NCBI GenBank assembly: GCA_963823665.1
Contig: CAWGMQ010000008.1
Span: 768,001-832,000, forward strand
Length of the DNA stretch: 64,000 bases
Origin: an uncultured Planctomycetota bacterium
Lineage (GTDB): Bacteria; Planctomycetota; Planctomycetia; Isosphaerales; Isosphaeraceae
Direction: 5' to 3'
Below are positions 9,325 to 46,549 of the stretch, one piece after another (position 1 is the stretch's first letter; every line of letters starts with the position of its first letter). The notes below the pieces were generated by a model, which made no database searches, was not told the DNA's origin, and saw nothing but the letters and a program-made list of their open reading frames with translations. The position numbers were made by a program, and so were the translations under genes.

Positions 9325-9562
9325 TACCTCAACTTCGGGCCAACGGATTATTGCCGACCGGCGTTTTGACCGGCGGTGCAGACCTCTCCGAGTTTAACAT
9401 CGCCGCCTCGAGACGAACACGTTGCAGATGGCTCGAGTGAGTATCAGCCACTCATTTCGGCCGCACATCGGAACGCCAGCCGCTCGTACCAGCAGGCTTG
9501 TTTCCGGCTTGATCGGGTGGGATGATCGGCTCTGCTTTTCTATCCGTCAAGAGCCTGGGATC

Positions 9563-11056: not shown

Positions 11057-11093
11057 ATTTGATCTACGGGTCCCCCGACCGGAGACGACGCTG

Positions 11094-15868: not shown

Positions 15869-15963
15869 GCGCATGGTCGTGATTTCGGTCGAGCTGACCA
15901 ACACCCTCGAACGACTCGGCAGCGGCGCGGAAAGCTTGCGCGTGGCTGGAGGGAATGCATGTG

Positions 15964-17047: not shown

Positions 17048-17147
17048 GTCCTTCCTCGTGCCCATGCGCTGCATCCACTTTATGGGAGTGGCCGCTGTGT
17101 CTGTCCGGCGACGCGGAGCGTCGGGGAGAGCATTCCCACGCAGATTT

Positions 17148-20042
17148 TCATTTTAAGGGTCCTGACACCTTTTTCTCGAACTCCTGGAGCAAGGCTTGAA
17201 ATCCCGGGTCGTTGCGGATCGGCTCGAGATCGGTGTCTTTCTTGAGGACAACGACGTCGGTCCAACCCCGCTCCTTGGCGTTGCGCAGGCATTCCAGCGC
17301 GGCACTCGTGTAACGCGCTTTTGTCTGCTGATCACTCCCCGTGGCGGCTGAGGCGACCGCGTAGCCGAAGGCGGCCTGGACGTAAAGGTTCTCATCCTTG
17401 GGCGGTGTCGCCACCAGCGAGTGGGCAATCTTCGCGGCTTCGACGTGCTCGCCGCAACGGCCGAGCGCGAGCATGAGGTTCAACTGCATGCCTTTGGGAT
17501 CCGTCTGTTTCACGAGCTCTTTACAGACCGCCAGGCTTTCCTGGAATCCGGTCGCGGCGCCGGCCTTGTCGCCTGCGTGCATGGCGCAGGTCGCGTCGTA
17601 ATAGAGCGTCTCGGCAAGCACCTTCTTGTTCGCGGCATCCTCGGGATCGGCCTTCGCTCGCTTCCTCAGAATCTCGAGCGCCTTGCGGTGGAAGTCGCGG
17701 GCGAGTGCGGGATCCTTTCCATTGGGATATCGCATCGAGGCTTGATTGTTGTACGAGAGGGCAAGGTCGTTCTGGACCGGCCAGGAGTCCGGCTGTTTGG
17801 CCGTGTTCTGGCTGCGCAGCGACGCCACCTTATCATACAGTCGCAGCGCTTCATCGTTGTCGCCCATTCGGACATACATCGCTGCGCGTTCCGCAATGAA
17901 GCCGGCGAGCTCGCGCCGGTTCTCGAATTCGCCGGCGGCTGCGGCGGAAAATGACTCGCGGATCTCGATCTCCTGGCGATAGAGCTCACGGGCCTTATCG
18001 AGATGACCGAGATTCGCTTCCGACTTCGCCAGCCCACCCACCGAATTGGCCAGCTCACTCTTGAAGGCGTCGCTGTCGGGCTCTTTGGCCAGGCGTGTCT
18101 TGCTGAGCTCGATGGCGGTGTTGAAGTAGCTCTGGGCCCCCGCGGTGTCGCCGATCTGGTCCATGGTGACGTAGCCGAGCTGGCGCTTGATTTTTATCAA
18201 GTTGACCTGCATGACGCGGTCGGCCGGATCGGCGACGGTGAGCTTGGTGACGATTTCTTCGGCCTGGTGGAATTGTGCGAGAGCCTCCTTGACCTGGTTC
18301 CGCGATAGATGGAGGGCACCCTGTGACTGGTGCGCCTTCGCCAGTGTTCCCCAGTTGCGTCCTTCGTCTTCCGGTGCCCAGTCCACGTCGCGGCGCAGGT
18401 TAGTCATTGCCTGCGCCGCCTCTTCCAGTCGCTTGCTCGCCTTGTCGAGCAGAGCTTCGCGCTCGTCATGGATCGCGGTCACGAAGCGCAGCTTGCGCCG
18501 CAGCAGATCGATCATATCGAGCTGGGCTTCCACCGCACTGCGGTTTTGTACGTTGGCCGCGCGGGCGGCGGCGACGGCGACCTTTTCCTTGCGCTCGGCC
18601 TCTTGACGCTTTTCCTCAGCGAGTGTATTCGCCGCGGCCAGTGCCTGACTTTGCTGACGGTAAACCACCGCAGCGATGGCCGAGCCGGCCGAACCCGTCA
18701 ATATCAAAGCGGCGACCGCCCCAGTCAGAATCGCAACCGTCTTGTTGCGCAGGCACCACCGGCGCACGCGTTCGACGTCGGAGACCGGTCGCGCGGTGAT
18801 CGTTTCACCCGCCCGGAACTTGCGCAGGTCCTCGGCCAGAGCCAGCGCGTCGGGATAGCGCCGCGCGATGTCCTTTTCCAGGCATTTCAGGCAGATCGTC
18901 TCCAGATCGCGCGGCGTTTTGGGCTGGAGCTGCGAGGGCGGCACGGGCTCACGGCTGCGCACCATGTCGAGCGTGTCGAGCACCGAAGTTCCCTGGAACG
19001 GCGGCCGCCCGGTGAGTAGCTCGTAAAGGATCGCGCCCAGGGCATACTGGTCCGCGGCGGGCCCGACCCGCTGGCTCTCACCCCGCGCCTGTTCCGGAGC
19101 CATGTAGCTGGGCGTGCCCAGGATCGAGCCGCTGCTGGTGTGCCCCGAGTCATCCTCCAGCCGCTTCACCAGCCCGAAATCGGTGATTTTCACGGTGCCG
19201 TCGGCCGCGAACAGGATATTGGTTGGTTTGAGGTCGCGATGGATCACCTTGTGCTCATGCGCCACGTGCATCGCGCGCGCGAGCGTCTCGACGATTCGCG
19301 CAGCCTCGTGAAACGGCTGGGGCTTGCCGCCGATCTTCTGGGCGAGGGTACCGCCCGGGAGATACTCGAGCGAGAAGTAAGGCAGCCCCTCGTGCTCGCC
19401 GATCTCGAAAATCCGGACGAAATTGGAGTGTTCAATCGCGGCAACCGCTTTCGCCTCGATCTCGAACCGCGCGAGATCCTCGGGCCGCGCATTGGCCCCG
19501 CCGCGAATCATCTTGAGCGCAACGAACCGGTCGAGCCGCGGCTGTCGCGCCTTGTAGACAACCCCCATGCCGCCGACGCCCAGGACACCGAGAATCTGGT
19601 AACCGGCGATTTGCGCCTTGGGCAGCTCCACTGCGCCGGCAGTCGGGGGCAGGGTGTGGTTGAGATCCCGGGTGAGAGAGATTCCTAAGTCTGAGGCGAC
19701 GGTCGAGTCGCGCGAACCAACCGCCGTGATCCCGTCCGCGAGCTCGGGGTCGTCGAGCTGCTCGAGCCGCTCGAGCCATGACGGAGAGGCGACGAGTGTG
19801 GCGATCGTCTTCCGGGCATCGCCGTCATGCCGCTTGAGACACTCGGTGGAAAGCGTTTCAATCAACCCACGCTGCACCGCGGAAAGCACGCCCTGGTCGA
19901 CCAGCACGTCAGCCAGTGTGCGGCCCGGTTCCCGCGCCTGAGCCCTGAGCGCGGCCGGAATCACCTCCGGCGCAACCAGATCGTTGTGCATCGCGATGAG
20001 GCCGAAGAGCAAATCGCTGGGGGCGTCGCCGAGTCGAACCAT
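17148..20042 (-). CDS. Membrane Ser/Thr protein kinase (Hanks type) with C-terminal TPR-like region
   Basis: LGVGGMGVVY, VALKMI, HRDLKPTN, DFGL, GTPSYMAPEQ; one hydrophobic segment (VAILTGAVAALIL...) followed by a coiled coil and TPR-like helices. AAGAGGAG RBS precedes ATG 20042. Confidence 0.95.
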   Translation of the reverse strand: MVRLGDAPSDLLFGLIAMHNDLVAPEVIPAALRAQAREPGRTLADVLVDQGVLSAVQRGLIETLSTECLKRHDGDARKTIATLVASPSWLERLEQLDDPELADGITAVGSRDSTVASDLGISLTRDLNHTLPPTAGAVELPKAQIAGYQILGVLGVGGMGVVYKARQPRLDRFVALKMIRGGANARPEDLARFEIEAKAVAAIEHSNFVRIFEIGEHEGLPYFSLEYLPGGTLAQKIGGKPQPFHEAARIVETLARAMHVAHEHKVIHRDLKPTNILFAADGTVKITDFGLVKRLEDDSGHTSSGSILGTPSYMAPEQARGESQRVGPAADQYALGAILYELLTGRPPFQGTSVLDTLDMVRSREPVPPSQLQPKTPRDLETICLKCLEKDIARRYPDALALAEDLRKFRAGETITARPVSDVERVRRWCLRNKTVAILTGAVAALILTGSAGSAIAAVVYRQQSQALAAANTLAEEKRQEAERKEKVAVAAARAANVQNRSAVEAQLDMIDLLRRKLRFVTAIHDEREALLDKASKRLEEAAQAMTNLRRDVDWAPEDEGRNWGTLAKAHQSQGALHLSRNQVKEALAQFHQAEEIVTKLTVADPADRVMQVNLIKIKRQLGYVTMDQIGDTAGAQSYFNTAIELSKTRLAKEPDSDAFKSELANSVGGLAKSEANLGHLDKARELYRQEIEIRESFSAAAAGEFENRRELAGFIAERAAMYVRMGDNDEALRLYDKVASLRSQNTAKQPDSWPVQNDLALSYNNQASMRYPNGKDPALARDFHRKALEILRKRAKADPEDAANKKVLAETLYYDATCAMHAGDKAGAATGFQESLAVCKELVKQTDPKGMQLNLMLALGRCGEHVEAAKIAHSLVATPPKDENLYVQAAFGYAVASAATGSDQQTKARYTSAALECLRNAKERGWTDVVVLKKDTDLEPIRNDPGFQALLQEFEKKVSGPLK

Positions 20043-20142
20043 GGTTGCTCCTCTTGCGGTCAGGCCGGGTCGGGTCGGGCTGGGTTGCGCCCGACGCGGC
20101 GAAGGTGATTCGCTGGCGGCGAGGCCGCCCATCATTGTGCGG

Positions 20143-20167
20143 ACGGCACACGGAGTGTGCCTGCTAC
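20143..20167 (-). repeat. GTAG-type REP-like palindrome
   Basis: Minus strand reads GTAGCA-GGCACAC-TCC-GTGTGCC-GT, a GTAG tetranucleotide followed by a perfect 7-bp hairpin, just downstream of the ECF stop codon. Confidence 0.65.
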
Positions 20168-20169
20168 AA

Positions 20170-20772
20170 CTACGAAGGGTCGTCGAGCAGCTTGATCTCC
20201 TCTCGGAGGAACTCAAGTACGCGGCTCTTTGCCTTGAATACCGTCGCCCGGCTCATCCCCAGCCGGGTCGCGACCTCGTCGCCGGAAAAGCCCTCGTAGG
20301 CCGTTAGCCGGAACGCTTCCCACGTCTGCGGCTCAACTCGTGCCCGGGCGCGGGCGGAGGCCATCGCCACGATCTCCGAGTCAAACTGGTCCTTGAGATG
20401 CGCGAGCAGATCGGCTCGCGCCTCCACGCTTTGAAGCTGCTCGAGCACTGCGTCGTCGCCGCTGCCGGAGCACTGGCGCTTCCGTTCCGCGAGGAAGTCG
20501 GCCAGGGCGTGCTGGGTCACCGTGCGCAGCCAGCCACGAAAACTCCGGGACGGGTCATACTGAAACGCCCCGAGCTTCTGAGACAGACGCAAGAGCACGT
20601 CCTGGGTGACATCTTCCGAGTCGGCCTCCTGCAACCCCCAGCGCCGGCACCAGCCGCGAATCCGCGAACCGTACAGGTTCACGAACCGCGCCCAGGCGAC
20701 GTGGTCTCCCGGGCCCAGACCGACGCGACCCAGCAGGGTCGCACTCGTCGGATCGGTCGATTCGAGCGGCAT
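20170..20772 (-). CDS. ECF sigma-70 factor (planctomycete kinase-associated type)
   Basis: TSATLL, AWARFVNLY, EADSEDVTQDV, SFRGWL, TWEAFRL, VATRLGMS..VFKAKSRV. It is co-oriented directly upstream of the kinase; GAGGA RBS precedes ATG 20772. Confidence 0.93.
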   Translation of the reverse strand: MPLESTDPTSATLLGRVGLGPGDHVAWARFVNLYGSRIRGWCRRWGLQEADSEDVTQDVLLRLSQKLGAFQYDPSRSFRGWLRTVTQHALADFLAERKRQCSGSGDDAVLEQLQSVEARADLLAHLKDQFDSEIVAMASARARARVEPQTWEAFRLTAYEGFSGDEVATRLGMSRATVFKAKSRVLEFLREEIKLLDDPS

Positions 20773-21009
20773 CGGATCCTCGACGGACGTCGTGGCGGGA
20801 CTACAAAGATGGTTTTTCACGGGTTACTCGCGAAACATCTCGTAACTAAAAGATAACGGCCTCGCCAAGGCTCGTCCATGAACAGGTCACGCTTGCACGC
20901 GCGGACCTGGAACGGGCGCCTGAACCGGGCCGGACTGGAGATACACCTCTCTTACGTTCGTCTGCGAAAATCCTTTCACCCCGAAAGAAAAAAGAATTTT
21001 TGCGCGGTT

Positions 21010-21046
21010 GAGTCAGGTCCGCCGCGCCCGGCCGGTACGATCTTCC
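21010..21046 (+). promoter_or_regulatory. Conserved promoter-like element, copy 1 (candidate ECF promoter)
   Basis: GAGTCAG GTCC GCCGCGC CCGG CCGGTA CG ATCT TCC, preceded by an A/T tract (GAATTTT) and about 55 nt upstream of ATG 21102. Matches 21535-21571 at 28/37 positions without gaps. Confidence 0.65.
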
Positions 21047-21101
21047 GAGCCACACAGCTCGGGTTCAATTACACGGCCGCATACCTGGAAAGGTCAAAAT
21101 C

Positions 21102-21383
21102 ATGACACGGAACTTGATCGCGACGGCGTCTCATGCTTTTGGAATCGTTCGCTCGAGTTCCGGCCGCCGGAGCCGGCCTCGCGCGAGCATTTGCCTCGAG
21201 AACCTCGAGGGCCGGCTGTCGTTGTCGTCCGTCTCGGCGGGCGGGCCCGCGCCGCTGATCAAGCACGGCGCTGATCCGACGGCTGTCCAGATGCAGCCGA
21301 TGATTCAGGGCAACCAACTCAGCACGAATGCCACTGGCCAGCACATCGAACCGGCTATCCTTTTCCCCGTGTTCGCTCAATAA
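21102..21383 (+). CDS. Short secreted protein with planctomycete LExLExR leader and one GNxIGTD-like repeat unit
   Basis: GGAAAGG RBS; RRSRPRASICLENLEGRLSLS leader; mature part contains MIQGNQLSTNATGQHIEP. Confidence 0.75.
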   Translation: MTRNLIATASHAFGIVRSSSGRRSRPRASICLENLEGRLSLSSVSAGGPAPLIKHGADPTAVQMQPMIQGNQLSTNATGQHIEPAILFPVFAQ

Positions 21384-21443
21384 GAGTCTCACGACCGTCA
21401 TGGCCCGAGCGCGGGCGTTCAGTATCGAAATTCTCGAACGTCA

Positions 21444-21480
21444 GGGTCAGATCCGCCCGGTCGCACCGCTACCCTCCCAC
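21444..21480 (+). promoter_or_regulatory. Conserved promoter-like element, copy 2
   Basis: GGGTCAG ATCC GCCCGGT CGCA CCGCTA, preceded by GAAATTCT; same spacing as copies 1 and 3. Confidence 0.5.
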
Positions 21481-21534
21481 GCGACCGTAGCGGATGCGTG
21501 TCATGAGCCCACGTTCGAATTTCTTGGTGAAGCC

Positions 21535-21571
21535 GAGTCAGATCCACCGCGCGACACCGGTAACATCTCCC
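21535..21571 (+). promoter_or_regulatory. Conserved promoter-like element, copy 3
   Basis: GAGTCAG ATCC ACCGCGC GACA CCGGTA AC ATCT CCC, preceded by GAATTTCTT and about 62 nt upstream of ATG 21634. Confidence 0.65.
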
Positions 21572-21633
21572 AGCGGTGCCGCGAACCCGGTCGAACAGGG
21601 TGATTCACTCCTAATTTTGCGAGATTTTCAACC

Positions 21634-22074
21634 ATGTTTCGCTCTTGGAACTCAATATGGCGTCATTGTGAAAAAGTTCCTGCTCGCGGCGGTCACAGAC
21701 GGCGACAGCCCGGCGGGAGAGCGCTTGAAAGCCTCGAGCAACGTTTGGCCCTCAGCCTCAGTCACACCGTCGCCCCGTTCGCTGAAGCGACGCAAACCTT
21801 TGTTGCAACGATGGTTGCACCTTACCAAAGGCACGCCGAGGTCGCGGGCGCCTCCGTCGCCGGCAATGATCTCACCGGTCAGGCCAGCGGCAAGCGCCAG
21901 CACATCCCGCTGGTCACGCAAGGCGACGGGTCCGCTCGGAAGATCTCCCCGGAGTGGATTCAGGGGATGCCAGGTGAAGACGTCGTCGCGAACACGGCGC
22001 CAGAGCAGCAGTCGTTCACACACAGGCACCCTACGCTCACCAATGTTGACAGGCGCACCATCACCGTCACGTGA
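21634..22074 (+). CDS. Short secreted protein with planctomycete LExLExR leader; likely paralog of 21102..21383
   Basis: MFRSWNSIW...RRRQPGGRALESLEQRLALS leader; mature part contains VAGNDLTGQASGKRQHIP. Confidence 0.75.
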   Translation: MFRSWNSIWRHCEKVPARGGHRRRQPGGRALESLEQRLALSLSHTVAPFAEATQTFVATMVAPYQRHAEVAGASVAGNDLTGQASGKRQHIPLVTQGDGSARKISPEWIQGMPGEDVVANTAPEQQSFTHRHPTLTNVDRRTITVT

Positions 22075-22464
22075 AACCGGCGCAACTCATCCGGTTTCGA
22101 TCCTTGGTCGCAGCGGCGCGTGCAAGGGGCGTGCCGAAAAAGAGATGCGTTCCCAAAAGACCATACGTGCGTACAAAAATGAATCCGTTCGCGAGTGGAA
22201 TAGTGACAAGATGGAACTCGCGAGTGTATTACTTTTCTCTTCTCCCACTGCTTGCGTTGTTGCGCGGTGTCTTGCGCCCTATGACCGAGCGCCTCCGCGA
22301 TTCGCCTTGGGGAAATCGCGAAAACGAGATTCGCGTGCATCGAAGCACGTGCTTCCAACGTACCTTGGGAAACCACGCCCGACGCGAGGACGGCTGAACG
22401 CCTCTCGTGCGTTTGAATTTGCCATCCTGATCTTGGATCTCTCCCGACAAAAGAGGCTCGTTCG

Positions 22465-31400: not shown

Positions 31401-34400
31401 CTCGGGTAATACCGCCGACGGCGTCGCCATCAGCGGTGCATCTGGCACCGTCGTCGCCGGGAACCTGATCGGCACCGACGTGACGGGGACCTTTGCGATT
31501 GCCAACTCGATCGGCGTCGAGATCGATACGGGCGCCTCGGGAAACACCATCGGCGGATTGACCGCCGTTCCGGGCGTGGGGCTCGGCAACCTGATCTCGG
31601 GCAACGCTACCGGGATCAACGACAGCGGTGGCGGCGACGACGTGTTCTTGGGCGATTCCATTGGCCCAACTAACGATGGAATCGCCGGCGGCGGGACCGA
31701 CGGTATCGACGTGTCAACCTCGGGCGACACGATCGGCGGAACGATCGCCGGCTCGGCCAACCTCATCAGCGGCAACTCCAGCTACGGCATTCATTTCACC
31801 GGCGCGGCGCGACCGGCAACCTGGTCGAAGGCAACTTCATCGGCACTAACTTGCTGGGCACCATGGCGATTGCCAACTCAGTGGGCGTCGAGATTGACGC
31901 GGGCGCCTCGGGCAACACGATCGGCGGTCTCCACAAGCGTGCCGGGCACCGGCGCGGGCAATGTGATCTCGGGCAACGCGACTGGAGCCATCGACTTTGG
32001 TGGTGGAAACGACGTGTTCGAAGGCAATTTGATCGGCTTAAAGGCTGGGGGGCTTGCCGCGCTGCCGAACACGAGCGGTGGGATTGGCGCGGGGAGCGCT
32101 GGAGACACCATCGGCGGCACGGCTGCCGGCGCGAGCAACGTTATTTCGGGGAACGGGGACACCGGCGTCTCGGTCTCCGGAGGCGTCGTTGTCGTGGGTA
32201 ATCTGATCGGCACGGACTCAAGCGGCACCGTCGCGGTTGCCAACGCGCTGGGAATTGATGTCGCACAAGGGGAGAACACAATCGGCGGGACAATCTCCGC
32301 CGCGCGCAATGTGATCAGCGGCAACACCGGTGATGGCATTCAGATCGACTTCTTTCCCGGATTTTCCATCAACACCCTGATCGAGGGAAACTACATCGGC
32401 CTCGATTCCACGGGCACGCTCGCTCTGGGAAACGGCGGCGATGGGATCGACATCATCGCCCCACCGCTGTCCGGCGGCAGCGCCACGACCATCGGCGGAT
32501 CGATCACCGGATCAGGCAACGTCATTTCCGCCAACGTCGGTGTTGGCATCTCGATCGCGACCAATAATAGCGGAAATCTGATCGAGGGGAATTTCATCGG
32601 GACCGACCACACCGGTGCGACGTCGACCGATTCCGACGGTGATTCGCTCGGCAATCAGCAAGGGGGGATCCTGGACGTCGCAGCCAACGACACCATCGGC
32701 GGACTGACCGCGGCGCGCGCAACGTCATCAGCGGAAACCCCATGTTCGGTGTTTCCCTCGGTGAAAGTATTTATTCGGCGGCGACCGATGCGAGCGTTAT
32801 GGGTAACTACATTGGCACCGACGTCACCGGCACCGTTGCGCTGCCCAACGACCTGGGCGTGCAGCTTGCCGGCGGAGGCAACACGATCGGCGGCACGGCC
32901 TCGGGCGCGGGGAATCTGATCTCCGGGAATGGCATCGGAATCAGCGACGCGGCACCCAGCGGTAACCTCATCGCAGGCAATTTCATCGGCACCGATGCCG
33001 GTGGCACCGCCGCTCTGGGAAACACGGTCGACGGCATCGACATCTCCGCGTCGGGCCAGACGATCGGCGGAACGGCTCCGGGGGCAGGAAACCTGATCTC
33101 GGGGAACGACGGTGAGGGCATTCAGATCGCCAGCCACCCCGCTGGCTTCGACTTTATCAGCCCCGCAGAAGACAATGTCATCCAGGGCAATCTGATCGGT
33201 ACCGACGTCACCGGCGACGTCGCGATTCCGAACTACGATGGCGTGGATGTGGTTGGCGGGTACGCCGGCAACACAATCGGCGGCAGCGTGTACGGTGCGG
33301 GCAACCTCATCTCAGGCAATACGAATGACGGCATACTGCTCCGGGGCTCTAACGCCAACACCATATCCGGCAATCGAATCGGCACCGATCGAACCGGCAC
33401 CATCGCTTTGGGCAATCAATCAGGCGGTATTCAGCTCGAAGACGCCACTCTCATGCAGCGTGGTGTATTTGGTGGTGTGCGGGTCTACGGATCAGACAAT
33501 AACACGATCGGCGGCACGACCGCGGCGGCGCGGAACATCATCTCGGGAAATCGAGGGAGCGGTGTTGAGATCGGTGAAGCCAGCCAAAACGTGGTGGCGG
33601 GGAACTGGATCGGAGTCGATGCCGCCGGCGCGAAAGCCCTGGCAAACGCGATCTTCGGCGTCTCCATTCAAGGAGCGTCCGCAGGGGAAGGCGGCACCGG
33701 CAGCGCCAGCAACAGCAGCAGCAGCTCCAGCGGCAGCGGCAACACATCAGGAAAAAGTAATATCATCGGCGGCACCGCCGCGGGCTCAGGCAACGTCATA
33801 TCGGGGAATGGTTCCGGCGGAATCTACATCTCCGGGGGGACCCTGGACGTCGTGGCGGGGAACTGGATCGGGACTGATGCCACCGGCACCGTCGCGCTGG
33901 CGAATGCCGGCGACGGCGTGGAACTCAACCAGACGTCGGGCAACACGATCGGCGGAACCGTGCCCCAAGCCGCAAATTTGATCTCGGGCAATACCAACGG
34001 CGTCGAGATCAACGACTCGAGCCAGAACTTTGTCCAGGGGAACATGATCGGCACCGACACGACTGGAACGCTGGCAATTGGTAACACCGGCGCCGGCGTG
34101 CTGGTCGACGCCGGTTCCGCGTCCAACACGATCGGCGGGCCGGTGGGCGGGGGCGCAACCTGATCTCGGGGAACGCGGAAGGCGTGATGATCGAGGATGG
34201 AGACCCGACCGGAACACTCGTGGCCGGGAACCTGATCGGCACCGACATCAAGGGCACCTCCAGCGTACCCAACCTGAGCGGCGGCATCATCATCACGGGC
34301 GGCTCGGGCACCACCATCGGCGGTGCAGGCACGCTGGGTCTCAACGTGATCTCGGGGAACAAGGGTGACGGCATCGACATCGACAGCGATGCGGCGAGCA

Positions 34401-37400
34401 CGCTCGTCGAGGGCAATTACATCGGCACGGACCAGACCGGAACCGAGCCGTTGCCCAACACGGGCGACGGGGTGTCGGTCGACGACGCCTCGGGCGTTAC
34501 CATCGGCGCCACAGTGCAGAGCGCGGGCAACGTGATCTCGGGCAACGCGCAATCGGGTGTATCGATCACCGGGACCACCACGACGGGGATCCTGATCCTG
34601 GGCAACCGCATCGGCACCGACTACACCGGCTCATTGCCCGTGGGGAACACGTCCTTCGGCGTGATGGTGAGCGGCACGCCCGGGGTCGTGATCGGGGGCA
34701 CAGCGCCCGGGTATCGGAACATCATCTCGGCCAACACCACCGGCGGCATCGGGCTGTACGCGGATACGACCGGTGCGCTCGTCGAGGGCAACTACATCGG
34801 CACCGACATCACCGCCTCGCAGCCGCTGGGCAACGGAAACGGCATCCAGATCGACGGGGGCTCGTCCGACAACACGATCGGCGGCACAGTCGCCGGCGCC
34901 GGCAACACGATCGCGTTCTCGACGGGCACCGGCGTGTATGTCGACTTCACGGCCGGGACCTGCAACGAAATCCGGCTCAACTCGATCTTTTCCAGCACCG
35001 GATTGGGGATCGCCCTGGGGAGCACCACTGTCACCCTCAACAACTCGGCCGGGCATGTCGGACCCAACGACTATCAGAATTTCCCCGTACTGACCATGGT
35101 CTCGAGTGCGGGTGGCTTGACGACCGTCACAGGCACGTTGAACAGCACGCCGGACACCACGTTCGAGCTCGATTTCTACACGCTCTCATCGATGAACATT
35201 TATGGCTATGGCGAGGGCCGGTACGTTCTGGGCTCGAAGCCGGTGACGACGGACGACACGGGCAACTTCAGCTTCAGCTTCAATTTCCCGACCCCCGCGG
35301 GCGGGGCCAAGTTCGTTGCGGCGACGGCCACCGACCCGAGCGGCAACACGTCTGAGTTTTCTCAGGCTTATGGTGTCGATACGCCGCCTACCGCCGTCAT
35401 CGGGTTCACCAGCATCACGGTCGACGCGGGAGCGTCGATCCCGTTCGATGCCCTGGGATCGACCAGCCCCAGCGGTCTTCCACTCACCTATTCCTGGTCG
35501 TTCGGCGATGGCGCGACCGCGTCGGGGCCGGAGCCGATGCACGCGTACGCCGCGCCGGGGCCAGAGACCGTGACCTTGACCGTCAATGACGGGTTCGGTG
35601 GAATCGACATCGCCACGGCCAAGGTCAATGTCGACGACGTCGCGCCGGTGTTCACTCCCAACAATTATACGCCGCCGCTGGCCTACACAACGCCCACACC
35701 CGGCGACGGATTTGGCGACTCCGTCGCCTCGAACTACGGCAATGTCGCGATCGGCGCCCCGCTAGAAAACGGCACGGGCGCGGTCTACCTGTACGACGGC
35801 GTGTCCACTGACGACGGGGTTTCCTCAACTTACATTTATGGCGCGCTCATCCACACGTTCACGGACCCTAACACCGAGCCCGGCGATGAGTTTGGTGCAT
35901 CGCTGGCGGTGGTCGGCAACGAGCTGGTGATCGGGGCCCCCGGCAGCTCGCTCTCCGGGCCCGGCGACGGCGTGGCGTACGTTTACGACGCCAATGTCGA
36001 AAGCACGACCTTCGGGAAGTTGCTGGCGACACTCGAGATTCCCAATCCCGACCTCATGAATGATGCGCATTTCGGCGCCGCGGTCGGCACGACCGACACG
36101 AATATTGTGATCGGCGCGCCCGGCAGGGATGGCGGCACGGGCGAGGCTTACGAGTTCGAAGGCGACACCACGCAGGCGAACTTCGGTGATCTTCTGGTGA
36201 AGTTCATCAACCCCGACGGACAGGCCGGCTCGGGATTCGGTGCGGCGGTCGCGGGTATCGGGGACAACGTGATTGTCGGTGCACCATCCGACAGCACGGC
36301 GGGTGCGGGCACGGGGACCGTCTATCTGTTCGACGGCACGAGCGGAGCGGAGTCCGTGGCGATCCTCAATCCGCACCCGGCCGACTCGACGGGGTTCGGC
36401 TCGGCGGTTGCGTCGGTCGGATCAAATATCCTGGTCGGGTCGCCGGATGACAACACCGCCGGGCCCGGCGCGGGTGCGGCATTCCTGTTCCTTCCGACGG
36501 GCCTGTTGCGCACGACGTTCGTTCAGCCCGATGGCGGCGGCGGTGGCTTCGGCACCTCAGTCGCGGGGACGCAGAACACGGCGCTGATCGGCGCACCCGG
36601 TGCCCACCTGGCGACGAGCGACGCCGGGGCCGCCTACCTCTTTGATGCCGATCCGGCGAGCCCGACCTTCAGCCGGGCGATCGGCGCTGTGCAAGAGGCA
36701 ACACCCACCACGGGCGACGCCTTTGGCACCGCGGTCGGATTCGACACCGGCGCCCTGATCGTGGCGCGGCCGGGGCGATCGGTTCGGGAATCACGGGGGC
36801 CGAGGCCGTCGATCTTTATCAGCAAGGTGCGACGCTCTCTCTTTCCTCGGCCCTGACCTACGCCACCCCCGCGCCATACGACTCGGTGATCGTGAGCGGC
36901 ACGTACCTGGACGCCAACACCTCGGCGACGCTCAAGGCGACGATCGACTGGGGCGATGGGTCGGCCTCGACGGTTGTGATGCTTCCACCAGGGTCTTACG
37001 CTTTCTCCGCTCCGCACGACTACCTGGCTGACCCGGCCGGCGGCTACTACAGCATTGGCGTGACCCTGACCGACCAGGGTGGCGAGACGACCGTCGCAGA
37101 AACGACCGTCACCGTCAGCAGCCCGGAGCCGCACTTCGCGTCGCCCGGCCTGGTGCTATCGTCGTCGAGCATCGTCGAAGGGGGCACGGCCCAACTGAGC
37201 GGGAAAATCACGAGCCCCGGCGGCAGCGACGGCAACACGATCGCGATCAACTGGGGCGACGGCACCGGTCCCACCACGATCTCACTCGCTCCGGGCATCG
37301 ACACGTTCTCGACAACCCATGCGTATCCGGCGAACCCGATTGGGGTCGAATCTGCGAATTACACGATCAACGCTTCGGTGACCGACCAGTCGACGGAGAA

Positions 37401-40400
37401 GGCAGGATACGAGTCGGCGACAGTCACCGTGAACAAGGTGGCCGCGCAGTTCACCACGGCCGACCTGAGCTTGTCGACGACGACCGCCAACGAGGGAGAC
37501 ACGATCACACTCAGCGGCCAGTTCACCGACCCGGACGCGGTCAGCTCGTACACGGCGACGATCAACTGGGGCGATGGGGCTACTCCGATCACTCTCAAGG
37601 AGTCGCTGGGGCAGATCGTCGCGTCCTTGATCACGCCGGGGCTCTACACGTACTCGGCCACTAATCAGTATCTCGATAACCCGCCCGGCGAACTGACCGG
37701 GGGCAGCTACCCGATCAGTGTATCCGTCTCCGACGGCGTGAACACCACTTCGGCCGCCACGTCGATCATCGTGAATAACGTTCCGCCGACGGTGGTGATC
37801 GCCAGCGACGTCGATCTGACGAACGGCACGATCACGACGACGGCCAACGTGACCGACCCGGGCTTTCTCCAGATCGAGTCGGTCGCGTGGACGCTGACCC
37901 AGAATGGGATCGTGATCGGGACGGACTCGATCACCGGCACGACATACACATTCCCGATCCTCAACCCACTGGGGGTGCTGGTTGCGAGCGCAACTGTAAC
38001 CGACAGCGACGGCGGCATCGGCTACGGCAGTGCGCAGATGATTGTCATCTATCAGACCGGCGCCTCGGTCGTGATCAACTCGTCCGCGATCACCGTCTCG
38101 ATGGGCGCAACCCAGGTCGCGACGACCTTGCTCTCGGGCGCCGGACAGGTGGTCGCGCTCGTCACCGGGTCGAACGTGGCGGTCAATGCCATGGCCGCGA
38201 CGAACTCGGTCGAGCTCATCGGCTACGGCTCGGATGAGACCCTCCTGGGAGGATCGGGTGATGACCTGCTCATCGCCGGACCGGGGGCCAACAGCCTGGT
38301 CGGCGGCACCGGTGACGACACGCTGGTCTCCAACCAGGGCGACGATACGCTAGTGGGCGGCGGGGGGAACGATGTTTTCCGGATCAATCCCGGACAGGAC
38401 CCGCTGGTGGTCGCTCCCGGCGGGTTCAACACGCTCGACTTCTCGATCGCCACCGTGCCCGTCAGCATCAACCTCGGCATGGAATCGGGCCAGCAGCAGA
38501 CCGTCAACTCGGATAATGACGAAGTTGCCCTCATAGGCCAGTTCAACGCGGTCATCGGCTCGCCGTACGGCGGCAACATCACGGCCAATAGCGGCAACGA
38601 CCTGCTTTATACGACCACCGGGAACTCGACCATCAACGCCGGATCCGGCAGCGATTCGATCGTCGGCGGGTCGGGCAACGACATCATCTACACCACCACT
38701 GGAAACGCCACCATCACCGGAGGATCGGGCAGTGACTCGATCAGCGGCGGGTCGGGCAACGACATCATCTACACCACCACCGGAAACGCCACGATCACCG
38801 GCGGCTCCGGCAGCGACTCGATCTTCGGCGGACAGGGCAATGACATCATCTACACCACCACCGGAAACACCACGATCACCGGCGGCTCCGGCAGCGACTC
38901 GATCTTCGGCGGACAGGGCAATGACATCATCTACACCACCACCGGAAACGCCACGATCACCGGCGGCTCCGGCAGCGACTCGATCTTCGGCGGACAGGGC
39001 AATGACATCATCTACACCACCACCGGAAACACCACGATCACCGGCGGCTCCGGCAACGACTCGATCTTCGGCGGACAGGGCAATGACATCATCTACACCA
39101 CCACCGGAAACACCACGATCACCGGCGGCTCCGGCAACGACTCGATCTTCGGCGGACAGGGCAATGACATCATCTACACCACCACCGGCAACACGACGAT
39201 CACCAGCGGCTCCGGCAATGACTCGATCTTCGGCGGACAGGGCAACGACATCATTTACACTACCACCGGAAACACCACCATCACGGGTGGCTCCGGCAGT
39301 GATTCAATCGTGGGCGGATCGGGCAACGACATCATCTACTTGACCACGGGCAATGCGACGGTGAGCGCCGGGTCCGGCAACGATTCGATCACCGGCGGGC
39401 AAGGCAACGACATCATCTATCTCACGACCGGCAATTCAACCGTCACCGGCGGATCGGGGAACGAGACAATCCTCGGCGGGCAAGGCAACGACATCATCTA
39501 TGCCTATGCCGCCACCGCGCTCATCGTGGGCGGCTCTGGTGACAGCACGATCACCGGCGGCCAGGGCAACGACATCATCGTCGGCGGCTCGGGCAACGAT
39601 TCGATCACGGGCGGGTCGGGCGACGACCAGATCGTGGGCGGATTCGGCAACGACACGATCACGGGTGGGTCGGGCGACGAGACCATCACTGGCGGATCGG
39701 GCAACGACATCATCTTCGGCGGCACCGGCAACGACTTGATCGTGGGCGGCACGGGCAACGACTCGATCGCCGGCGGCAGCGGCAGCGACTCGATCACGGG
39801 CGGATCGGGCAACGACATCATCTGGGGCGGCACGCTTTCGAGTACTGTCAACTCGAGCGGCGCGGCGACCATCGTTTTCACCGGCACGACTGGCAACGAT
39901 TCGATCACCGGCGGCTCGGGCGATGATACGATCTTCGGCGGCAATGGCAGCGACATCATCTACGGCGGACTCGGCGACGACACGATTGTGGGCGGGCAGG
40001 GCGCTGACTCGATTCTGGGCGGCTCGGGCGACGACATCATTTACGGCGGCACCCAGTCGAGCACCTTGAGCGGCGGCAGCGGCAACGACTCGATCTTCGG
40101 GGGCAACGGCAACGACATCATCTACGGCGGCACCGGCGATTCCACGATCGTCGGCGGTACCGGCAACGACTCGATCACGGGCGGCCCGGGCGACGATGTG
40201 ATCTACGGTGGGCCTGGCGACAACACGATCTCCGGGGGCGGCGGCAACGTCACAATCGTGGGCGGCGTGGGCTACGACACGAACCTGGGCGGCGGGACAA
40301 CCGATTCGGTCTTCTCGAGCAATGGCAACGACGTGCTCGAGGGGGGCGGCTTCGATTCGTGGCTGATGGATTTTGGCTCGCAGAACTTGACGGTCACCGA

Positions 40401-43400
40401 CTCGAGCCTCACGACCACGGGCGGCGGCTTGCCCTCGTCAGTCTCGACGTTCAGCGGCTTCCAGAACGTGCTGCTCGCGGCGGGCACGGGGAACTTCACG
40501 CTCGACGCCTCGGGCTTCTCGGGCGGTTCCTTCCTTCAGGGTGGAACCGGCAACGACACGTTGATCGGCGCTCGCGGCGCGGACACTCTGGTCGGCGGCA
40601 CGGGCAACGACTCACTCGTCGGCGGCGGCGCCAATGACACCTTCGCCTTCAACAGTGACTCGAGCGGGGGCCAGACAATCGACGAGCCCCAAGACGGTGG
40701 CGTTGCGGGGCTCGATTTCTCTCAGGCCCCCGCAGGGATCTCGATCAATCTCAGCGAATCCGGGCCCCAGGCCGTGATGCCGGCCACGCTGGGCGACGGC
40801 GCGCTTAACCTGACCCTGGCCGACCCGCTTGGCATCGACAACGTGGTCGGTAGCTCATACGACGACACGATTCTCGGCAATGCCAACGACAACACCTTGA
40901 TCGGTGGCGGCGGCCAGGACCTGATCGCGGGCCTGGCCGGTGACGACGTCATCGAGGGGTCGGTCACCCGGACAGTCTATCTCGACTTCGACACCTACGA
41001 GCTGCCGGGCCAGCACTACTACACCGATGACGAGCGCGAGGCGATCCAGAAGCAGATCGAGACCGACTATTCCGCGTTCTCTTATGTCTTTACCCAGACA
41101 CAGCCGCAGTCGGGGCTGTATACCACGATCTATTTCAACGATCCGACGCTCGTCGGCCTCGAGGGGGGAATCGCGACCGAGATCGACTGGCGCGACCTGG
41201 ACATCTCCGGTACGACGAGCCTCACCGCCGCCGGCCTGGACGTCATTCCGCCCGATACCGGCGGGGTCAACGTCAATAACTTCCTGGGCGGTCCCGGCCA
41301 GCCCGCCGCCTCGAGCGCCGACTTCATCGGCCTGTCGGCCACGATCGCCGCCCACGAGCTGGGGCATCTCTCCGGCCTGGAGCACGCCGACGCGTTCGGA
41401 CCGATCGGCTCGGGGATTTACTCCGGGGTCAAGCCCGGCCTTTACAATCCCAGCTATCCCGGGGCGATCGATGCCAGCGAGACGATCTGGCACATCATGG
41501 CCTCTGGCGCGTCGGTGAACTCGACACTCGAGGATGCGATCAACGACCCGTTCTTCGGCGAGCGGGAGTCGATCGCGCTTGCCTTCGGCGCGAGCGGCTC
41601 ACCGACCAACGAGCAGATCGCTCCACACGATTCGATGGGCGATGCTCAGCCAATCGTGCTTGCGCCGCTGGTCGTGCCCGACACCGACCTCGAGGGCGTG
41701 GATGCCGACAAGTCGTTCGACGTCACCGCCGCCGACGTGGTTGGCTACCTCGGGGAGACAGACGGAGCATCGAACACCGACTTTTATTCGTTCAATGCCC
41801 CGGCGGGCACGCTGATCAACTTTCAGCTCATGTCGGCGCTCTTGACACGGACCGTGGCCCCTGCCGGCACCACCCCGAATGCCTACAACCAGGGGCCGTT
41901 CGACACCTATCTGGCCATTTACAATTCCAGCGGCCAGGTGATCGAGTACAACGACGACTCGTTCCAGGATACCGATTCCTCGATCATCGACCTGACCCTG
42001 CCGTACACGGGCACCTATTACGCGATGGTGACCTCTTCGCCGAATTCGGTATCCCTGAACGAGCCGCTGACCGGAGACTACGAGCTCTTCATGTACACCT
42101 TCGCGACCACTGGCGACCCGCCCGCCGGCGACACGTTGTACGGCGGCCCCGGCGACGACACGATCGTCGGCGGCTCGGCCGACGACACGATCGCCGCCCA
42201 GCCGCAGGACACGATCGTCTACGGCTCGGGCACGGCGACCGTGCTCGGCGCTGCCCCGTACCTCGACGTCTCCGCCGGATCGAATCAGACGGTGAACGAG
42301 GGCCAGTGCGTCACCTTGACCGGCTCGTTCCTCGACCCATTCGAGAACCCCACGCACATCTACGACTGGCACGTCGTCGCGTCGAGCGGCCAGATGATCG
42401 CCGATGGAAACGGCCCGACCTTCACCTTCACCCCCGGCAACGCCGGCACCTACACCGTCACCTACACGGCGTCTGATCCAAACGGCGGCATGGGCACGAC
42501 CCAGGTGGTGATCACCTCTCTGGCCGTCCCGCCGGTGATCACCCCCCCCACAACCGCCGAGACTGCCCTGGCGGGAGTGAACAACTCGATCGGCCTCGGA
42601 ACGCTGACCGTCAAGGGCGATGGTCCGTGGACCGACACGATCAAGTGGGGCGACGGCCAGTGCTCGACGTACGACCCCGCCGGCTCAGGGCCGCTGTCGC
42701 TGGCACACAAGTACGCCGCGCCGGGAACCTACACAATCTGCGAGACCGTCTCCGAGTACGACGGCGACTCCACGACCAGCACGTTTTCGATCAAGGTCGT
42801 ACAAGCCACGACCACCACGATGTTGTCGTCCGCGGCGCCCTCCGCCGTTTACGGCCAGAACGTCACATTCACGGCCACGGTCAGCGGTCCGGGCGTCGCT
42901 ACCGGCTCGGTGGCATTCTACTCCGGGCCGGTCGACCTTGCCGATCAGATCGGAATCGGCACGCTCAGCGTCGTGGGCGGCTCCGACGTGGCGACGTTCA
43001 GCACGCATTCGCTGGCGGTAAGCCGCAATCCGTATGCGATCACCGCAGTTTACGGCGGAGATACCGACGATGTGGGCAGCCCGTCGAATGTCGTGAGTGA
43101 AACGATCAGTCCCGACGGAACGACCACACAGCCTGGCTCGTCCGCGGGCTCGTCGAATTTCGGCCAGGCCATCACGCTCTCGGCCAGCGTCGCACCCAAG
43201 GCGCCCGGTGCGGGCACGCCCACCGGATCGGTCGACTTTTACGACACGACGACCGCCACCGACCTCGGCTCGGTGCCCCTCACCGCCGGCTCGGCGTCCA
43301 CGACAATCTCGACGCTGCCGGTCGGAACCCAGACCATCACGGAGACGTATTCCGGAGACTCGAATTTCACCACCAGCAATGGTGCGGTCTCGCAGACAGT

Positions 43401-44552
43401 GATCCTTTCCATCTACGCCCTCAACGCCTCCACGGTCAGTCCCACGATCACGGGCCCGGTGTATCTTTCCGGCAGCTCGAGCATCAACATCCCAGGGCAA
43501 CTGATCGTCGACTCGCCAGCGAAGCCCGCGGTCACCCTGACCGGAACATCCAGGATCATCGCTTCGAACGGAGTGGAGGTCGCCGGCACCGTTTCGGTAG
43601 CCAGCACGGCCAGCATCGGCCCCGATCTCACAACGGGAATCACGGCTGTCGCCGATCCGCTCACGGGACTCGCGCTCCCGAACCTCACCGGATCCGCGGT
43701 ATCGATCAACGTCACGTCCGGCTCAACGATCATCAGCCCCGGCATCTACAGCCAGATCAAAGTCTCGGGCACGAAATCGAGCCTCGTGCTGAACCCCGGT
43801 GTCTACGTCATCACCGGCGGTGGTCTCTCCGTCACCGGCTCGGCGAGCATCACCGGTTCGGGCGTGATGATCTACAACGCCGGCAGTACCTACCCGGCCT
43901 CGGGCGGTACCTACGGCGGCATCACCTTGAGCACGACGGGCAGTGTCAACCTCTCCGCTCCGACGACTGGCGCCGGCGCGGGGTACCTTTTCTTCCAGTC
44001 ACGCACCAATCCGACGGCGATCTCGATCACCGAGAGCTCGTCGATGACTCTGACAGGGGTCATCTACGCATCGGACGCCCTCATTTCCGCGAGCGGCACG
44101 AGCGCGGCGCGCTGAATGACGCGATGGTCGTCAACCGTATTCAGTTGAGTGGCAGCGCGACCGCGGGCGCACCGGCCGGCATGGCCGTTCAAAGCGTCTC
44201 CGTCGACGTCGCCGCGTCAACGAGCGCGCCGGTTGCTGGGCGGTCTGCCGCTCCCACAGTCTCCGAAGCCGGCACGTTGCCGGACCCGGTGCTCGACGAA
44301 CTGGTTGCTGCTCTCTTGTCCTCGCGAAACGAAGACGTGTCCCACACCGACGCTCTTGGGAGCGGCCAGTCCAGCAAGGTGGCGATCGCGCGGGCCGGTG
44401 ATGGCAGAGTGCGTTCAGCAAATTCCGGCCAGACGTCGATTCCGGGCGGGCCGCTGGCTCGGTTGGAACGGCCCCGGCAGACGAGCAAGAATGTAACGCG
44501 TCTGACGGATTCGCTCGCGATCGTGGCACGCTCGAACACGGACCGAGCATAA
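22465..44552 (+). CDS. Giant (~7,300 aa) surface protein/adhesin: planctomycete leader, SLR-AI (CSLREA-like) caps, long parallel beta-helix repeat array, PKD, FG-GAP propeller, RTX Ca-binding repeats, metzincin protease, PPC-like and bacterial Ig-like domains; frameshifted
   Basis: Leader FLPLDQRMMLS; dozens of NTIGG..GNLISGN..GNLIGTD units. Same-strand fragments 22465..32919, 31851..32201, 32742..34163, 34184..36856, 36886..44115 and 44124..44552 continue the same motifs across apparent single-base shifts near 31810, 31930, 32710, 34150, 36765 and 44105. Also YSWSFGDG (PKD), FGAAVA..IVIGAP (FG-GAP), GGxGxD (RTX), HELGHLSGLEH. Confidence 0.85.
38596..39486 (+). repeat. Coding tandem repeat, 11 x 81 bp (27 aa: NDIIYTTTGN[A/T]TITGGSG[S/N]DSIFGGQG)
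   Basis: Central copies are near-identical at DNA level (e.g. 38761-38841 vs 38842-38922); outer copies diverge. Confidence 0.9.
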
Positions 44553-46221: not shown

Positions 46222-46327
46222 TCGACCTGCCCCATAACCGGTGCTTTCTGCATCTGCCTGGGACTTCGGCTCATGGCTGCGCCGATTCATGACGCACGAG
46301 CATTCGGTCACTGCAAATAATTTTAAA

Positions 46328-46371
46328 TTGACTATATCATATTGTTTCAATAGTATAGTAAGCGACAATAT
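46328..46371 (+). promoter_or_regulatory. Sigma-70 promoter with overlapping inverted repeats (candidate ArsR operator)
   Basis: TTGACT-N17-TAGTAT (46328-46356) in an AT-rich island; inverted pairs ACTATA/TATAGT, TATTG/CAATA and ATATTGT/ACAATAT. Confidence 0.6.
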
Positions 46372-46549
46372 ACAAGCTTGGCGGGCAGACTTTGACACCG
46401 GGATGCTTATTCGCCGGGTGCCGGTGGTCTGTACAAGCCGCCCCTCGTATCTTCCAGCGCAAATGGAATCCGGGCTCAACGCCCCCGACGGACAGGGTGA
46501 TGTATTGCCCTGCCTCCATCCCGTCACACCTCTTTGGAGACAGAATCCG

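What the first reader, a model, noticed from the sequence alone, without database searches (positions are those of the whole stretch)
17148..44552. Candidate new signalling/surface system: kinase + ECF sigma, single-repeat mini-proteins and a giant repeat protein
Seen: a membrane Ser/Thr kinase with TPR-like C-terminal region and an ECF sigma are transcribed leftward. Divergently lie two short ORFs and then a ~22 kb gene, all three with planctomycete LExLExR-type leaders. A shared promoter-like element precedes the short ORFs, and each short ORF carries one unit resembling the giant protein's repeat. Established: planctomycete ECFs are often encoded with Ser/Thr kinases instead of anti-sigma factors, and ECF targets often lie next to the sigma gene. 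Inference: the ECF drives the mini-proteins, which act as secreted ligands for the kinase sensor, or as caps/nucleators for the giant beta-helix. I do not know of a description of such a circuit.
Basis: partly seen in the sequence, partly recalled or inferred. Interest (0 to 1): 0.85.

Follow-up and report, generated by a model that had tools for sequence, protein, structure and literature searches.

The report
Sigma-kinase switch controlling secreted motif peptides
In a soil planctomycete, a membrane sensor kinase and its partner sigma factor sit beside a conserved promoter that most likely switches on a giant surface protein and two small secreted proteins built from short motifs also found in other bacteria's pili and injection tubes, which suggests an undescribed peptide-signalling or decoy system.

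Summary
The layout is real. The kinase (964 aa, one membrane helix, TPRs) and ECF point left. Two conserved short genes and one ~7,360-aa giant point right; short-read contigs show that three of the giant's frame breaks are assembly errors. The shared element GAGTCAG(A/G)TCC-N11-CCGGTA behaves as an ECF promoter. It lies beside 19 of 30 ECFs with this sigma-4 helix and 0 of 37 others, and 18 of 20 sites examined precede LExLExR-leader genes. The regulon is therefore a secretome; mini-proteins are optional. The 'single repeat unit' idea mostly fails: the match is 8-12 residues and is lost in close orthologues. Instead the mini-proteins are motif mosaics. ORF1 ends in a 9-mer identical to a prepilin helix segment, ORF2 carries an Hcp-like motif, and a family motif also occurs on double-glycine (bacteriocin-type) leaders. 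Exported peptide precursors are likely. Binding to the kinase is untested, and close kinase/ECF orthologues also occur without mini-proteins. This scan earlier noted such divergent promoters elsewhere in this genome (e1-2569084) and a similar module in another planctomycete (e1-1163083). Verdict: new variant of ECF/Ser-Thr-kinase signalling.

The parts
17148..20042 (-). Hanks-type Ser/Thr receptor kinase, 964 aa: cytoplasmic kinase domain, one membrane helix (about aa 435-461), extracytoplasmic coiled coil plus TPR region
   Evidence: Pfam Pkinase and TPR; gene call P0039 and 83 homologues of the C-terminal region; hydropathy
20170..20772 (-). ECF sigma factor, 200 aa; sigma-2.2 motif DSED (acidic residues kept), sigma-4 helix TVFKAKSR; no anti-sigma gene seen next to it
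   Evidence: dN/dS 0.09 against the same-genus orthologue
20850..20878 (-). Possible housekeeping-type promoter of the ECF-kinase operon (TGGACG-N17-TATCTT); weak inference
   Evidence: similar hexamers recur in most orthologues (sequence); below the threshold of the consensus scan
21010..21037 (+). ECF-type promoter element 1 (-35 GAGTCAG, -10 CGGTA), 92 nt before ORF1, followed by a short palindrome at 21045-21062
21102..21383 (+). Mini-protein ORF1 (93 aa): basic N-terminus plus LExLExR leader; core ends in AILFPVFAQ, identical to a prepilin N-terminal helix segment; degenerate IQGN motif
   Evidence: dN/dS 0.71
21444..21471 (+). Degenerate third copy of the promoter element
   Evidence: matrix score 19.2 against 28.3 and 30.0 for the other two
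21535..21562 (+). ECF-type promoter element 2, 99 nt before ORF2; probably also serves the giant gene
   Evidence: no further element and no convincing terminator between ORF2 and the giant; giant relatives lie directly behind an element in L099 and L192
21634..22074 (+). Mini-protein ORF2 (146 aa): LExLExR leader plus motif mosaic (invariant APYQRH; GQASGKRQH resembling an Hcp/TssD segment)
   Evidence: dN/dS 0.42 over codons 1-85; the same-genus orthologue is truncated at 85 aa
22465..44552 (+). Giant predicted surface protein, about 7,360 aa: variant leader, about 54 GNxIG beta-helix repeats (to about 35.1 kb), PKD, FG-GAP repeats, RTX-type Ca-binding repeats, HExxHxxGxxH zinc motif at 41353, PKD and Big_3_5 Ig domains. 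Frame breaks near 31806/31928, 32711, 34148, about 36770-36850 and 44105 are most likely assembly errors

Best explanation
This is a planctomycete (Isosphaeraceae) receptor-kinase/ECF switch that controls a small secretome. (1) The ECF-kinase operon is probably made constitutively from a housekeeping promoter (inferred, weak). (2) A signal bound by the extracytoplasmic TPR region activates the kinase, which activates the ECF by phosphorylation. This is inferred from PknS/EcfK and PknT/EcfP. The site cannot be the ECF43 one in its known form, because the acidic DxED motif is intact. (3) The active ECF binds GAGTCAG(A/G)TCC-N11-CCGGTA and transcribes ORF1, ORF2 plus the giant, and at least three remote large leader-bearing genes in this genome (strong comparative support, about 0.8). 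(4) All products leave the cell by the LExLExR route (inferred from what is known of the leader, about 0.75). The giant acts as a long beta-helix adhesin or surface scaffold with a protease-like tip. (5) The mini-proteins are precursors whose active parts are short interchangeable motifs, not repeat units of the giant (about 0.65). Their most likely role is as diffusible peptide signals for TPR receptor kinases, of this or neighbouring cells, that amplify or spread the response (about 0.35-0.4; untested).
For: Promoter: all 8 ECFs of the window's clade (support 99, quick tree) have the element divergently upstream. Five match strictly within 500 bp, one lies at 1.2 kb behind an insertion, and two are degenerate, amid poorly conserved intergenic DNA. 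19 of 30 ECFs with helix V[FH]KAKS[RK] have it against 0 of 37 others; the reversed control gives 0. The helix occurs in three separately supported clades. In the clade with a changed sigma-2 loop, 2 of 4 loci keep the -35 box but change the -10 box. Remote copies are enriched in genomes with the ECF: G000 6 vs 0 control, G029 5 vs 0, G035 5 vs 0. Targets: 18 of 20 sites examined precede a LExLExR-type gene, 1 a GG-peptide and 1 nothing recognisable. Synteny: ECF-kinase / mini-protein / giant is kept in G029 and G035; ORF1 and ORF2 homologues lie on contigs of equal length in 3 further cases. Peptides: LNPQPLPP follows both LExLExR leaders and GG leaders (TIGR01847 above cut-off for the copy in this genome). 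17 of 24 motif-peptide loci have a Ser/Thr kinase gene within 4 kb against at most about 25% expected. Sister ECFs drive GG-peptides with HlyD and ABC exporters, one with a C39 peptidase.
Against: No expression or binding data exist. Co-inheritance of ECF and adjacent DNA could explain part of the co-location, and kin are not independent. The genome has at least 52 ECF homologues and up to 542 kinase candidates; one paralogue (59%, helix VHKAKSR) has a similar element and could read these promoters. 5 of the 8 closest ECF loci have no mini-protein behind the adjacent element. Only 7 of 24 peptide loci have an ECF within 2.5 kb. Selection on ORF1 is weak (dN/dS 0.71), and ORF2 has lost its C-terminal 60 codons in G029. 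The Ser of DSED is not conserved in the clade (DAED, DVED, DTED). PF07595 does not score the leaders.
Confidence: 0.55

Rival explanations
1. Same regulon, but the mini-proteins are outward-facing mimics or decoys. They display short motifs of other bacteria's pili and injection tubes to elicit or jam receptors of competitors, predators or phages, or to feed a danger-sensing kinase.
For: AILFPVFAQ lies in the prepilin N-terminal helix in 21 of 21 hits in viral contigs. Related peptides end in AILFPVFAQAR or IIAIL, the adjoining pilin segment; an independent lineage has AAILFPVFAQ. In 121 family genomes the back-translated pilin motif occurs only in ORF1 and one other peptide gene, and the GKRQH motif only in ORF2 (codon-restricted patterns), so the family's own machines do not seem to carry them. 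The ORF2 profile hits tandem repeats of P0035 (E 1e-10), which match TIGR03344 Hcp1 positions 46-70 (E 8e-8, below cut-off) and PDB 3he1 Hcp3 (E 0.19).
Against: The Hcp link is two-step: ORF2 itself hits no Hcp model. The motifs were picked after the fact. No receptor is identified. The same motifs could be generic processing or assembly tags.
Confidence: 0.2
2. The mini-proteins are caps or nucleators for the giant's beta-helix.
For: The family motif I[QV]GNHIG does occur in the repeats of related giants: 8 of 16 loci inspected out of 30 returned. Several family members score above shuffles against the repeat matrix. ORF1, ORF2 and the giant are adjacent and probably co-regulated.
Against: In this window the likeness is weak and is lost in the closest orthologues. 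Most peptide loci have no beta-helix giant nearby, and giant relatives occur behind the promoter without an intact mini-protein (L192).
Confidence: 0.07
3. The short ORFs are decaying stubs of larger LExLExR genes or nearly neutral by-products of promoter/leader duplication; only the giant is a real output.
For: ORF1 dN/dS is 0.71 and ORF2 is truncated in G029. A decayed mini-ORF remnant precedes a giant paralogue (L192). Most close ECF loci lack them.
Against: ORF2 keeps exactly 146 aa in 6 homologues at 72-83% identity, with invariant blocks. ORF1's C-terminal 10 residues are near-invariant in 5 of 5 close homologues. The motifs recur on two different leader types.
Confidence: 0.13
4. The element is read by another factor (a paralogous ECF or a transcription factor) and merely travels with the cassette.
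For: At least 52 ECF homologues in the genome; a paralogue with a similar helix and element; part of the element forms an inverted repeat in some orthologues.
Against: Fixed spacing typical of ECF promoters; -35 and -10 boxes change with sigma-4 and sigma-2 residues; 8 of 8 in the clade.
Confidence: 0.12

Closest known systems
Planctomycete kinase-associated ECF groups ECF59 (subgroup s2), ECF62 and ECF217 (PMC7826278, main-text and supplement passages)
   Same: ECF with a one-helix Ser/Thr kinase at +1 and no anti-sigma; TPR fusion in some ECF59s2 kinases; a Planc_extracel gene near ECF217s1.
   Different: The passages seen give no conserved promoter for ECF61 or ECF217 and only 'TC in -35' for ECF59; the ECF62 promoter entry was not seen. 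Here a full divergent promoter, a regulon and a peptide family are defined. The exact group was not assigned.
PknS/EcfK of Xanthomonas citri and PknT/EcfP of Vibrio parahaemolyticus, group ECF43 (PMC13147305 and PMC8999054, passages)
   Same: Membrane Hanks kinase with periplasmic TPRs (PknS) that activates an adjacent ECF; the output is exported machinery; the ligand is unknown.
   Different: ECF43 lacks the acidic DAED motif and is phosphorylated there; this ECF keeps DxED. The output is a LExLExR secretome with peptides, not a T6SS or polymyxin resistance.
Planctomycete extracellular-leader proteins (PF07595; RRLxxExLExRxLLA; PMC8567305, passages)
   Same: Same leader motif, found on the longest proteins of the genome and thought to be an export signal.
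   Different: The described carriers are large multidomain proteins; 75-150 aa motif-only carriers were not found described in my searches.
Peptide pheromone circuits with double-glycine leaders, such as ComC/ComAB/ComDE (recalled)
   Same: Short precursor, dedicated export, membrane kinase, positive feedback. Sister loci here have GG-peptides with HlyD and ABC exporters.
   Different: Ser/Thr kinase plus sigma factor instead of histidine kinase plus response regulator; the window's peptides use the LExLExR leader; feedback is not shown.

Membership tests
ECF sigma factors | sigma-2 and sigma-4 domains only, about 200 aa | tested here: met
   PF04542 and PF08281 above cut-off; TIGR02937 71 bits against cut-off 42.9
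Kinase-associated planctomycete ECF groups (ECF59/62/217) | Ser/Thr kinase at +1 with one membrane helix, no anti-sigma | tested here: met
   the kinase follows the ECF in the orthologues L092, L099, L180, L181, L184
Kinase-associated planctomycete ECF groups (ECF59/62/217) | Assignment to one group by the group HMMs | not testable with these tools
   group HMMs not held; TIGR02984 (Planctomycetaceae subfamily 1) below cut-off
ECF43 (EcfK/EcfP type) | Loss of the acidic DAED motif, with a phosphorylatable Thr in sigma-2.2 | tested here: not met
   motif is DSED here and DAED/DVED/DTED in orthologues; definition from PMC8999054 and PMC13147305
Phosphorylation-activated ECFs | Direct phosphorylation by the cognate kinase | not testable with these tools
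   inferred only
Planctomycete extracellular leader (PF07595) | ExLExR-type motif after a basic N-terminal stretch | tested here: met
   by sequence for ORF1 and ORF2 (invariant E-L-E-R); variant form in the giant
Planctomycete extracellular leader (PF07595) | Pfam model above gathering cut-off | tested here: not met
   no hit for ORF1, ORF2 or the giant; relative L104 scores 15.7 against 25.5 bits
Beta-helix repeat unit of the giant (for ORF1/ORF2) | A conserved full 60-70 aa repeat | tested here: not met
   matrix scores -1.1 and -5.5 against a median of 40.9; lost in orthologues
Hcp/TssD or type IV prepilin (for ORF2/ORF1) | Family model match over the domain | tested here: not met
   no Pfam, NCBIfam or PDB family hit; only 9-11 residue motif identity
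RTX toxins (for the giant) | RTX hemolysin model above cut-off | tested here: not met
   NF033943 337 bits against cut-off 1000; the matched stretches lie in the nonapeptide-repeat region
Peptide pheromone circuit | Peptide processed, exported and sensed by the linked kinase | not testable with these tools
   needs proteomics and a kinase assay

The most novel reading that the evidence does not exclude
Isosphaeraceae use TPR receptor kinases as pattern receptors for short conserved motifs of other bacteria's attack and attachment machines (pilin stem, Hcp tube loop, beta-helix adhesin turn). The ECF output includes self-made peptides that copy these motifs and re-trigger or spread the alarm, a bacterial counterpart of plant danger peptides, together with giant surface proteins as the defensive or adhesive response.
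Probability: 0.13. Interest if true: 0.92.

Novelty: new variant of a known kind. Interest (0 to 1): 0.62.

Why it matters
Planctomycetes carry hundreds of Ser/Thr kinases and dozens of kinase-linked ECFs; in the papers I could read, none has a known target promoter or ligand. This locus gives a specific, testable promoter. It also suggests why searches that assume autoregulation found none: in this clade the site faces away from the sigma gene. It names a regulon (leader-bearing surface proteins) and supplies short, synthesisable candidate ligands for an orphan TPR receptor kinase. If the peptides feed back on the kinase, this would be a peptide-pheromone circuit built from a Ser/Thr kinase and a sigma factor. 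If their pilin- and Hcp-like motifs are functional mimics, it would point to receptor-based sensing of rival bacteria.

Tried and rejected
Co-folding of the kinase extracytoplasmic region (aa 495-960) with mature ORF1 gave no verdict: scores 0.01 and 0.00, controls not run. AlphaFold2 gave no confident model for ORF2 (pLDDT 49.6, 11 sequences) or for a multi-repeat IQGNHIG relative (pLDDT 44.5, 16 sequences), so no fold search was run. ESM Atlas: only unnamed hits under 0.9 for P0016, none for ORF2. No RNA holder was listed. Rfam found nothing in 15000-47500. The sigma-70 and terminator scan found nothing above chance. The metagenome scan with A1 gave only 2 loci, of one type. Direct searches for ORF2's Hcp-like segment found nothing in plasmids, 0 and 1 viral contigs, and one chance-level PDB hit. 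The genome's own PF05638 match does not contain the motif. LNPQPLPP in viral contigs (6 hits) gave no common source family; about half of the 28 family loci inspected were off-frame chance matches. Rejected readings: the giant as an operon or pseudogene; recurring frameshifts in ECF orthologues as programmed (they differ in place and size within a GC run); autoregulation of this ECF (no same-strand element). The conserved 5' regions in L180, L181 and L193 show no common reading frame. The careful ECF tree did not finish; only the quick tree was used, with 66 of 68 rows. Single one-mismatch element hits in other family genomes were at chance level and were not followed, nor was G000:C7:704808. 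Jogler 2012 and Wiegand 2020 were not held.


Full report
Setting. The window is G000:C8:768001-832000 of a 16.46-Mb, 12-contig assembly, 91.9% complete. The closest ECF relatives come from Isosphaeraceae/Isosphaerales records. The genome is rich in signalling genes, with at least 52 ECF homologues and up to 542 kinase candidates, of which 150 were scored. An ECF-kinase pair as such is therefore ordinary here.

Anatomy. The kinase (17148-20042, 964 aa) has a Pkinase domain, one hydrophobic helix at about aa 435-461 and TPRs. The ECF (20170-20772) precedes it on the same strand. ORF1 (21102-21383), ORF2 (21634-22074) and the giant (22465-44552) face the other way. The giant appears as several ORFs. 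Short-read contigs of two other runs each carry one extra base at 32711 and 34148 (X1) and at 44105 (X2), from single low-depth contigs. The same-genus orthologue shows single-base offsets at 31806/31928, 34153, 36766 and 44099-44118; that comparison also shows offsets where the window is in frame, so that assembly has indel errors too. I read it as one gene of about 7,360 aa. It holds about 54 beta-helix repeat cores, PKD, FG-GAP, RTX-type Ca-binding repeats, a zinc-protease motif at 41353 and Ig domains. RTX toxin models stay far below cut-off, so it looks like an adhesin or surface scaffold.

The promoter. The shared element is GAGTCAG(A/G)TCC-N11-CCGGTA, exact at 21010 and 21535 and degenerate at 21444. 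A matrix trained on 10 sites not next to a detected ECF finds only these three in the window, against 1 in the reversed control. At <=1 mismatch G000 has 6 sites against 0 for the control, G029 5 vs 0, G035 5 vs 0 and G030 5 vs 1; most other family genomes have 0-1, like their controls. All 8 ECFs in the window's clade have the element upstream and facing away. Five match strictly within 500 bp, one lies at 1.2 kb and two are degenerate. Over 68 ECF loci, a relaxed form (GTCAR-N17-VGTA) lies divergently within 500 bp of 19 of 30 ECFs whose sigma-4 helix reads V[FH]KAKS[RK], 0 of 37 others and 0 of 1 without helix data; the reversed control gives 0. Kin are not independent, so I give no probability. 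In the quick tree these ECFs form three separately supported clades. In the clade with a different sigma-2 loop, 2 of 4 loci keep the -35 box but have a different -10 box. This is the pattern expected if the sigma itself reads the element. One clade has copies in both directions; the window's clade has only the divergent one. Its own operon has a weak housekeeping-like promoter seen in the alignment that the consensus scan does not call.

The regulon. Of 20 sites of this type that I examined, 18 precede a gene with a LExLExR-type leader, 1 a double-glycine peptide and 1 nothing recognisable. In G000 these are ORF1, ORF2 and three remote large genes. The full order kinase-ECF / mini-protein(s) / giant is kept in G029 and G035. 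Of the 8 closest ECF loci only 3 have a mini-protein; four drive large leader proteins directly and one shows no target. Near-full-length kinase orthologues (58-66%) persist in three loci without one. In sister clades the same promoter type precedes GG-peptides, HlyD and ABC exporters, one with a C39 peptidase.

The mini-proteins. Both are conserved genes. ORF1 has 21 homologues. ORF2 has 9, six of them exactly 146 aa. Three pairs lie on contigs of equal length, and four more ORF1-type peptides share contig lengths with close kinase homologues (inferred from lengths only). Selection is modest: dN/dS is 0.71 for ORF1 and 0.42 for ORF2 against 0.09 for the ECF, and ORF2 is cut to 85 aa in G029. 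No family model recognises them. They are not single repeats of the giant: matrix scores are -1.1 and -5.5 against a median of 40.9, the three closest ORF1 homologues lack the segment, and it varies in ORF2. Many relatives carry tandem I[QV]GNHIG motifs, and this 7-mer also occurs in giant repeats in 8 of 16 loci inspected out of 30 returned.

The cores are better described as mosaics of short motifs. P0034 joins an ORF1-type leader to ORF2-type motifs. ORF1 ends in AILFPVFAQ, near-invariant in 5 of 5 close homologues. The same 9-mer lies in the prepilin N-terminal helix in 21 of 21 viral-contig hits, and other members end in the adjoining IIAIL. ORF2's GQASGKRQH matches tandem repeats in an unrelated 1,239-aa protein (E 1e-10). 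Those repeats match the Hcp1/TssD model at positions 46-70 (E 8e-8, below cut-off) and weakly PDB 3he1 (E 0.19). ORF2 itself hits no Hcp model. In 121 family genomes these two motifs were found only in peptide genes (codon-restricted patterns). LNPQPLPP, common in the ORF1 family, also sits right behind double-glycine leaders in G000, G029 and G032 (TIGR01847 above cut-off for the G000 copy). A motif that moves between two export leaders argues that the motif peptide is the product. Of 24 motif-peptide loci, 17 have a Ser/Thr kinase gene within 4 kb and 7 an ECF within 2.5 kb. At G000's kinase density at most about 25% would be expected; several loci are related.

Mechanism. Shown: gene layout, conservation, element-ECF co-variation, target class. 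Inferred: kinase activates ECF by phosphorylation; ECF transcribes ORF1, ORF2, the giant and remote leader genes; export by the LExLExR route; peptide release. Least supported: what the peptides do. I favour signals for TPR receptor kinases, then mimics or decoys of foreign machines, then near-neutral stubs, then caps for the giant.

Literature. PMC7826278 (main-text passages; supplement passages from a file cut when stored) lists kinase-linked groups. It notes one-helix TPR kinases in ECF59s2 and a Planc_extracel neighbour in ECF217s1, and reports unconserved promoters for ECF61 and ECF217 and only 'TC' for ECF59; I did not see the ECF62 promoter entry. PMC13147305 and PMC8999054 (passages) describe PknS/EcfK and PknT/EcfP, and note that other groups keep DAED and may work differently. 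PMC8567305 (passages) describes the leader on very long surface proteins. Searches for the circuit or motifs found no description. The library lacks most subscription papers; Jogler 2012 and Wiegand 2020 were not held and Iyer 2020 was not seen, and their supplements may hold promoter predictions. The comparison with ComC-type pheromones and plant danger peptides is recalled.

Verdict. A real, conserved ECF/kinase-controlled secretome with an apparently undescribed promoter and peptide family. It is a new variant of a known kind, interest 0.62. The peptide-ligand loop remains a hypothesis.

Noticed in passing
window 15827-17074 (-): Pectate lyase (PF09492) directly downstream of the kinase, in the same order in the same-genus genome (87% identity); its last ~50 codons look frameshifted.
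   Followed up: partly
window 9422-13973 (+): AAA_14/DUF4143 ATPase followed by a 959-aa protein with a SIR2-like domain, a possible defence pair.
   Followed up: no
window 243-5851: Secretin (+) and a MshEN/T2SSE ATPase (-), parts of a type II or type IV secretion system, about 11 kb from the kinase.
   Followed up: no
L320:7392-7580 (G000:C7, about 710.4 kb): Double-glycine-leader peptide with core LNPQPLPP, embedded in an array of LExLExR genes and conserved in G029; no matching promoter element upstream.
   Followed up: partly
L100, L101, L102, L105, L106 upstream of the peptide genes: The IQGNHIG-repeat subfamily has a different conserved upstream motif (TTTTCGCGACAGG ... CTTT); in three of these loci a distant ECF (30-35% identity) lies next to it. 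Probably a second ECF-promoter-peptide channel.
   Followed up: no
window 21045-21062 and orthologues: A short palindrome (GAGCC-N-GGCTC type) just behind the -10 box is conserved in the clade; it could be a 5' hairpin or an operator.
   Followed up: no
L181-L184, ECF codon about 155: Four ECF orthologues are frameshifted in the same GC run, by different amounts and at slightly different places; most likely recurrent long-read errors.
   Followed up: yes
L198:3250-3459 and P0036/P0037: A GG-leader peptide behind the sister promoter shares an NL-x4-PDGR motif with LExLExR mini-proteins.
   Followed up: no
P0035; L335: An unrelated 1,239-aa protein is itself built from tandem short motifs including the Hcp-like one, and one viral-contig frame holds both an Hcp-like and a pilin-like motif. 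This hints at a wider motif vocabulary in secreted proteins.
   Followed up: partly
L180, L181, L193, first 600-800 nt behind the element: Long 5' regions conserved at 80-90% with no common reading frame; possible regulatory RNA or decayed genes.
   Followed up: partly
window 46241-46891 (+): ArsR-family regulator downstream of the giant.
   Followed up: no
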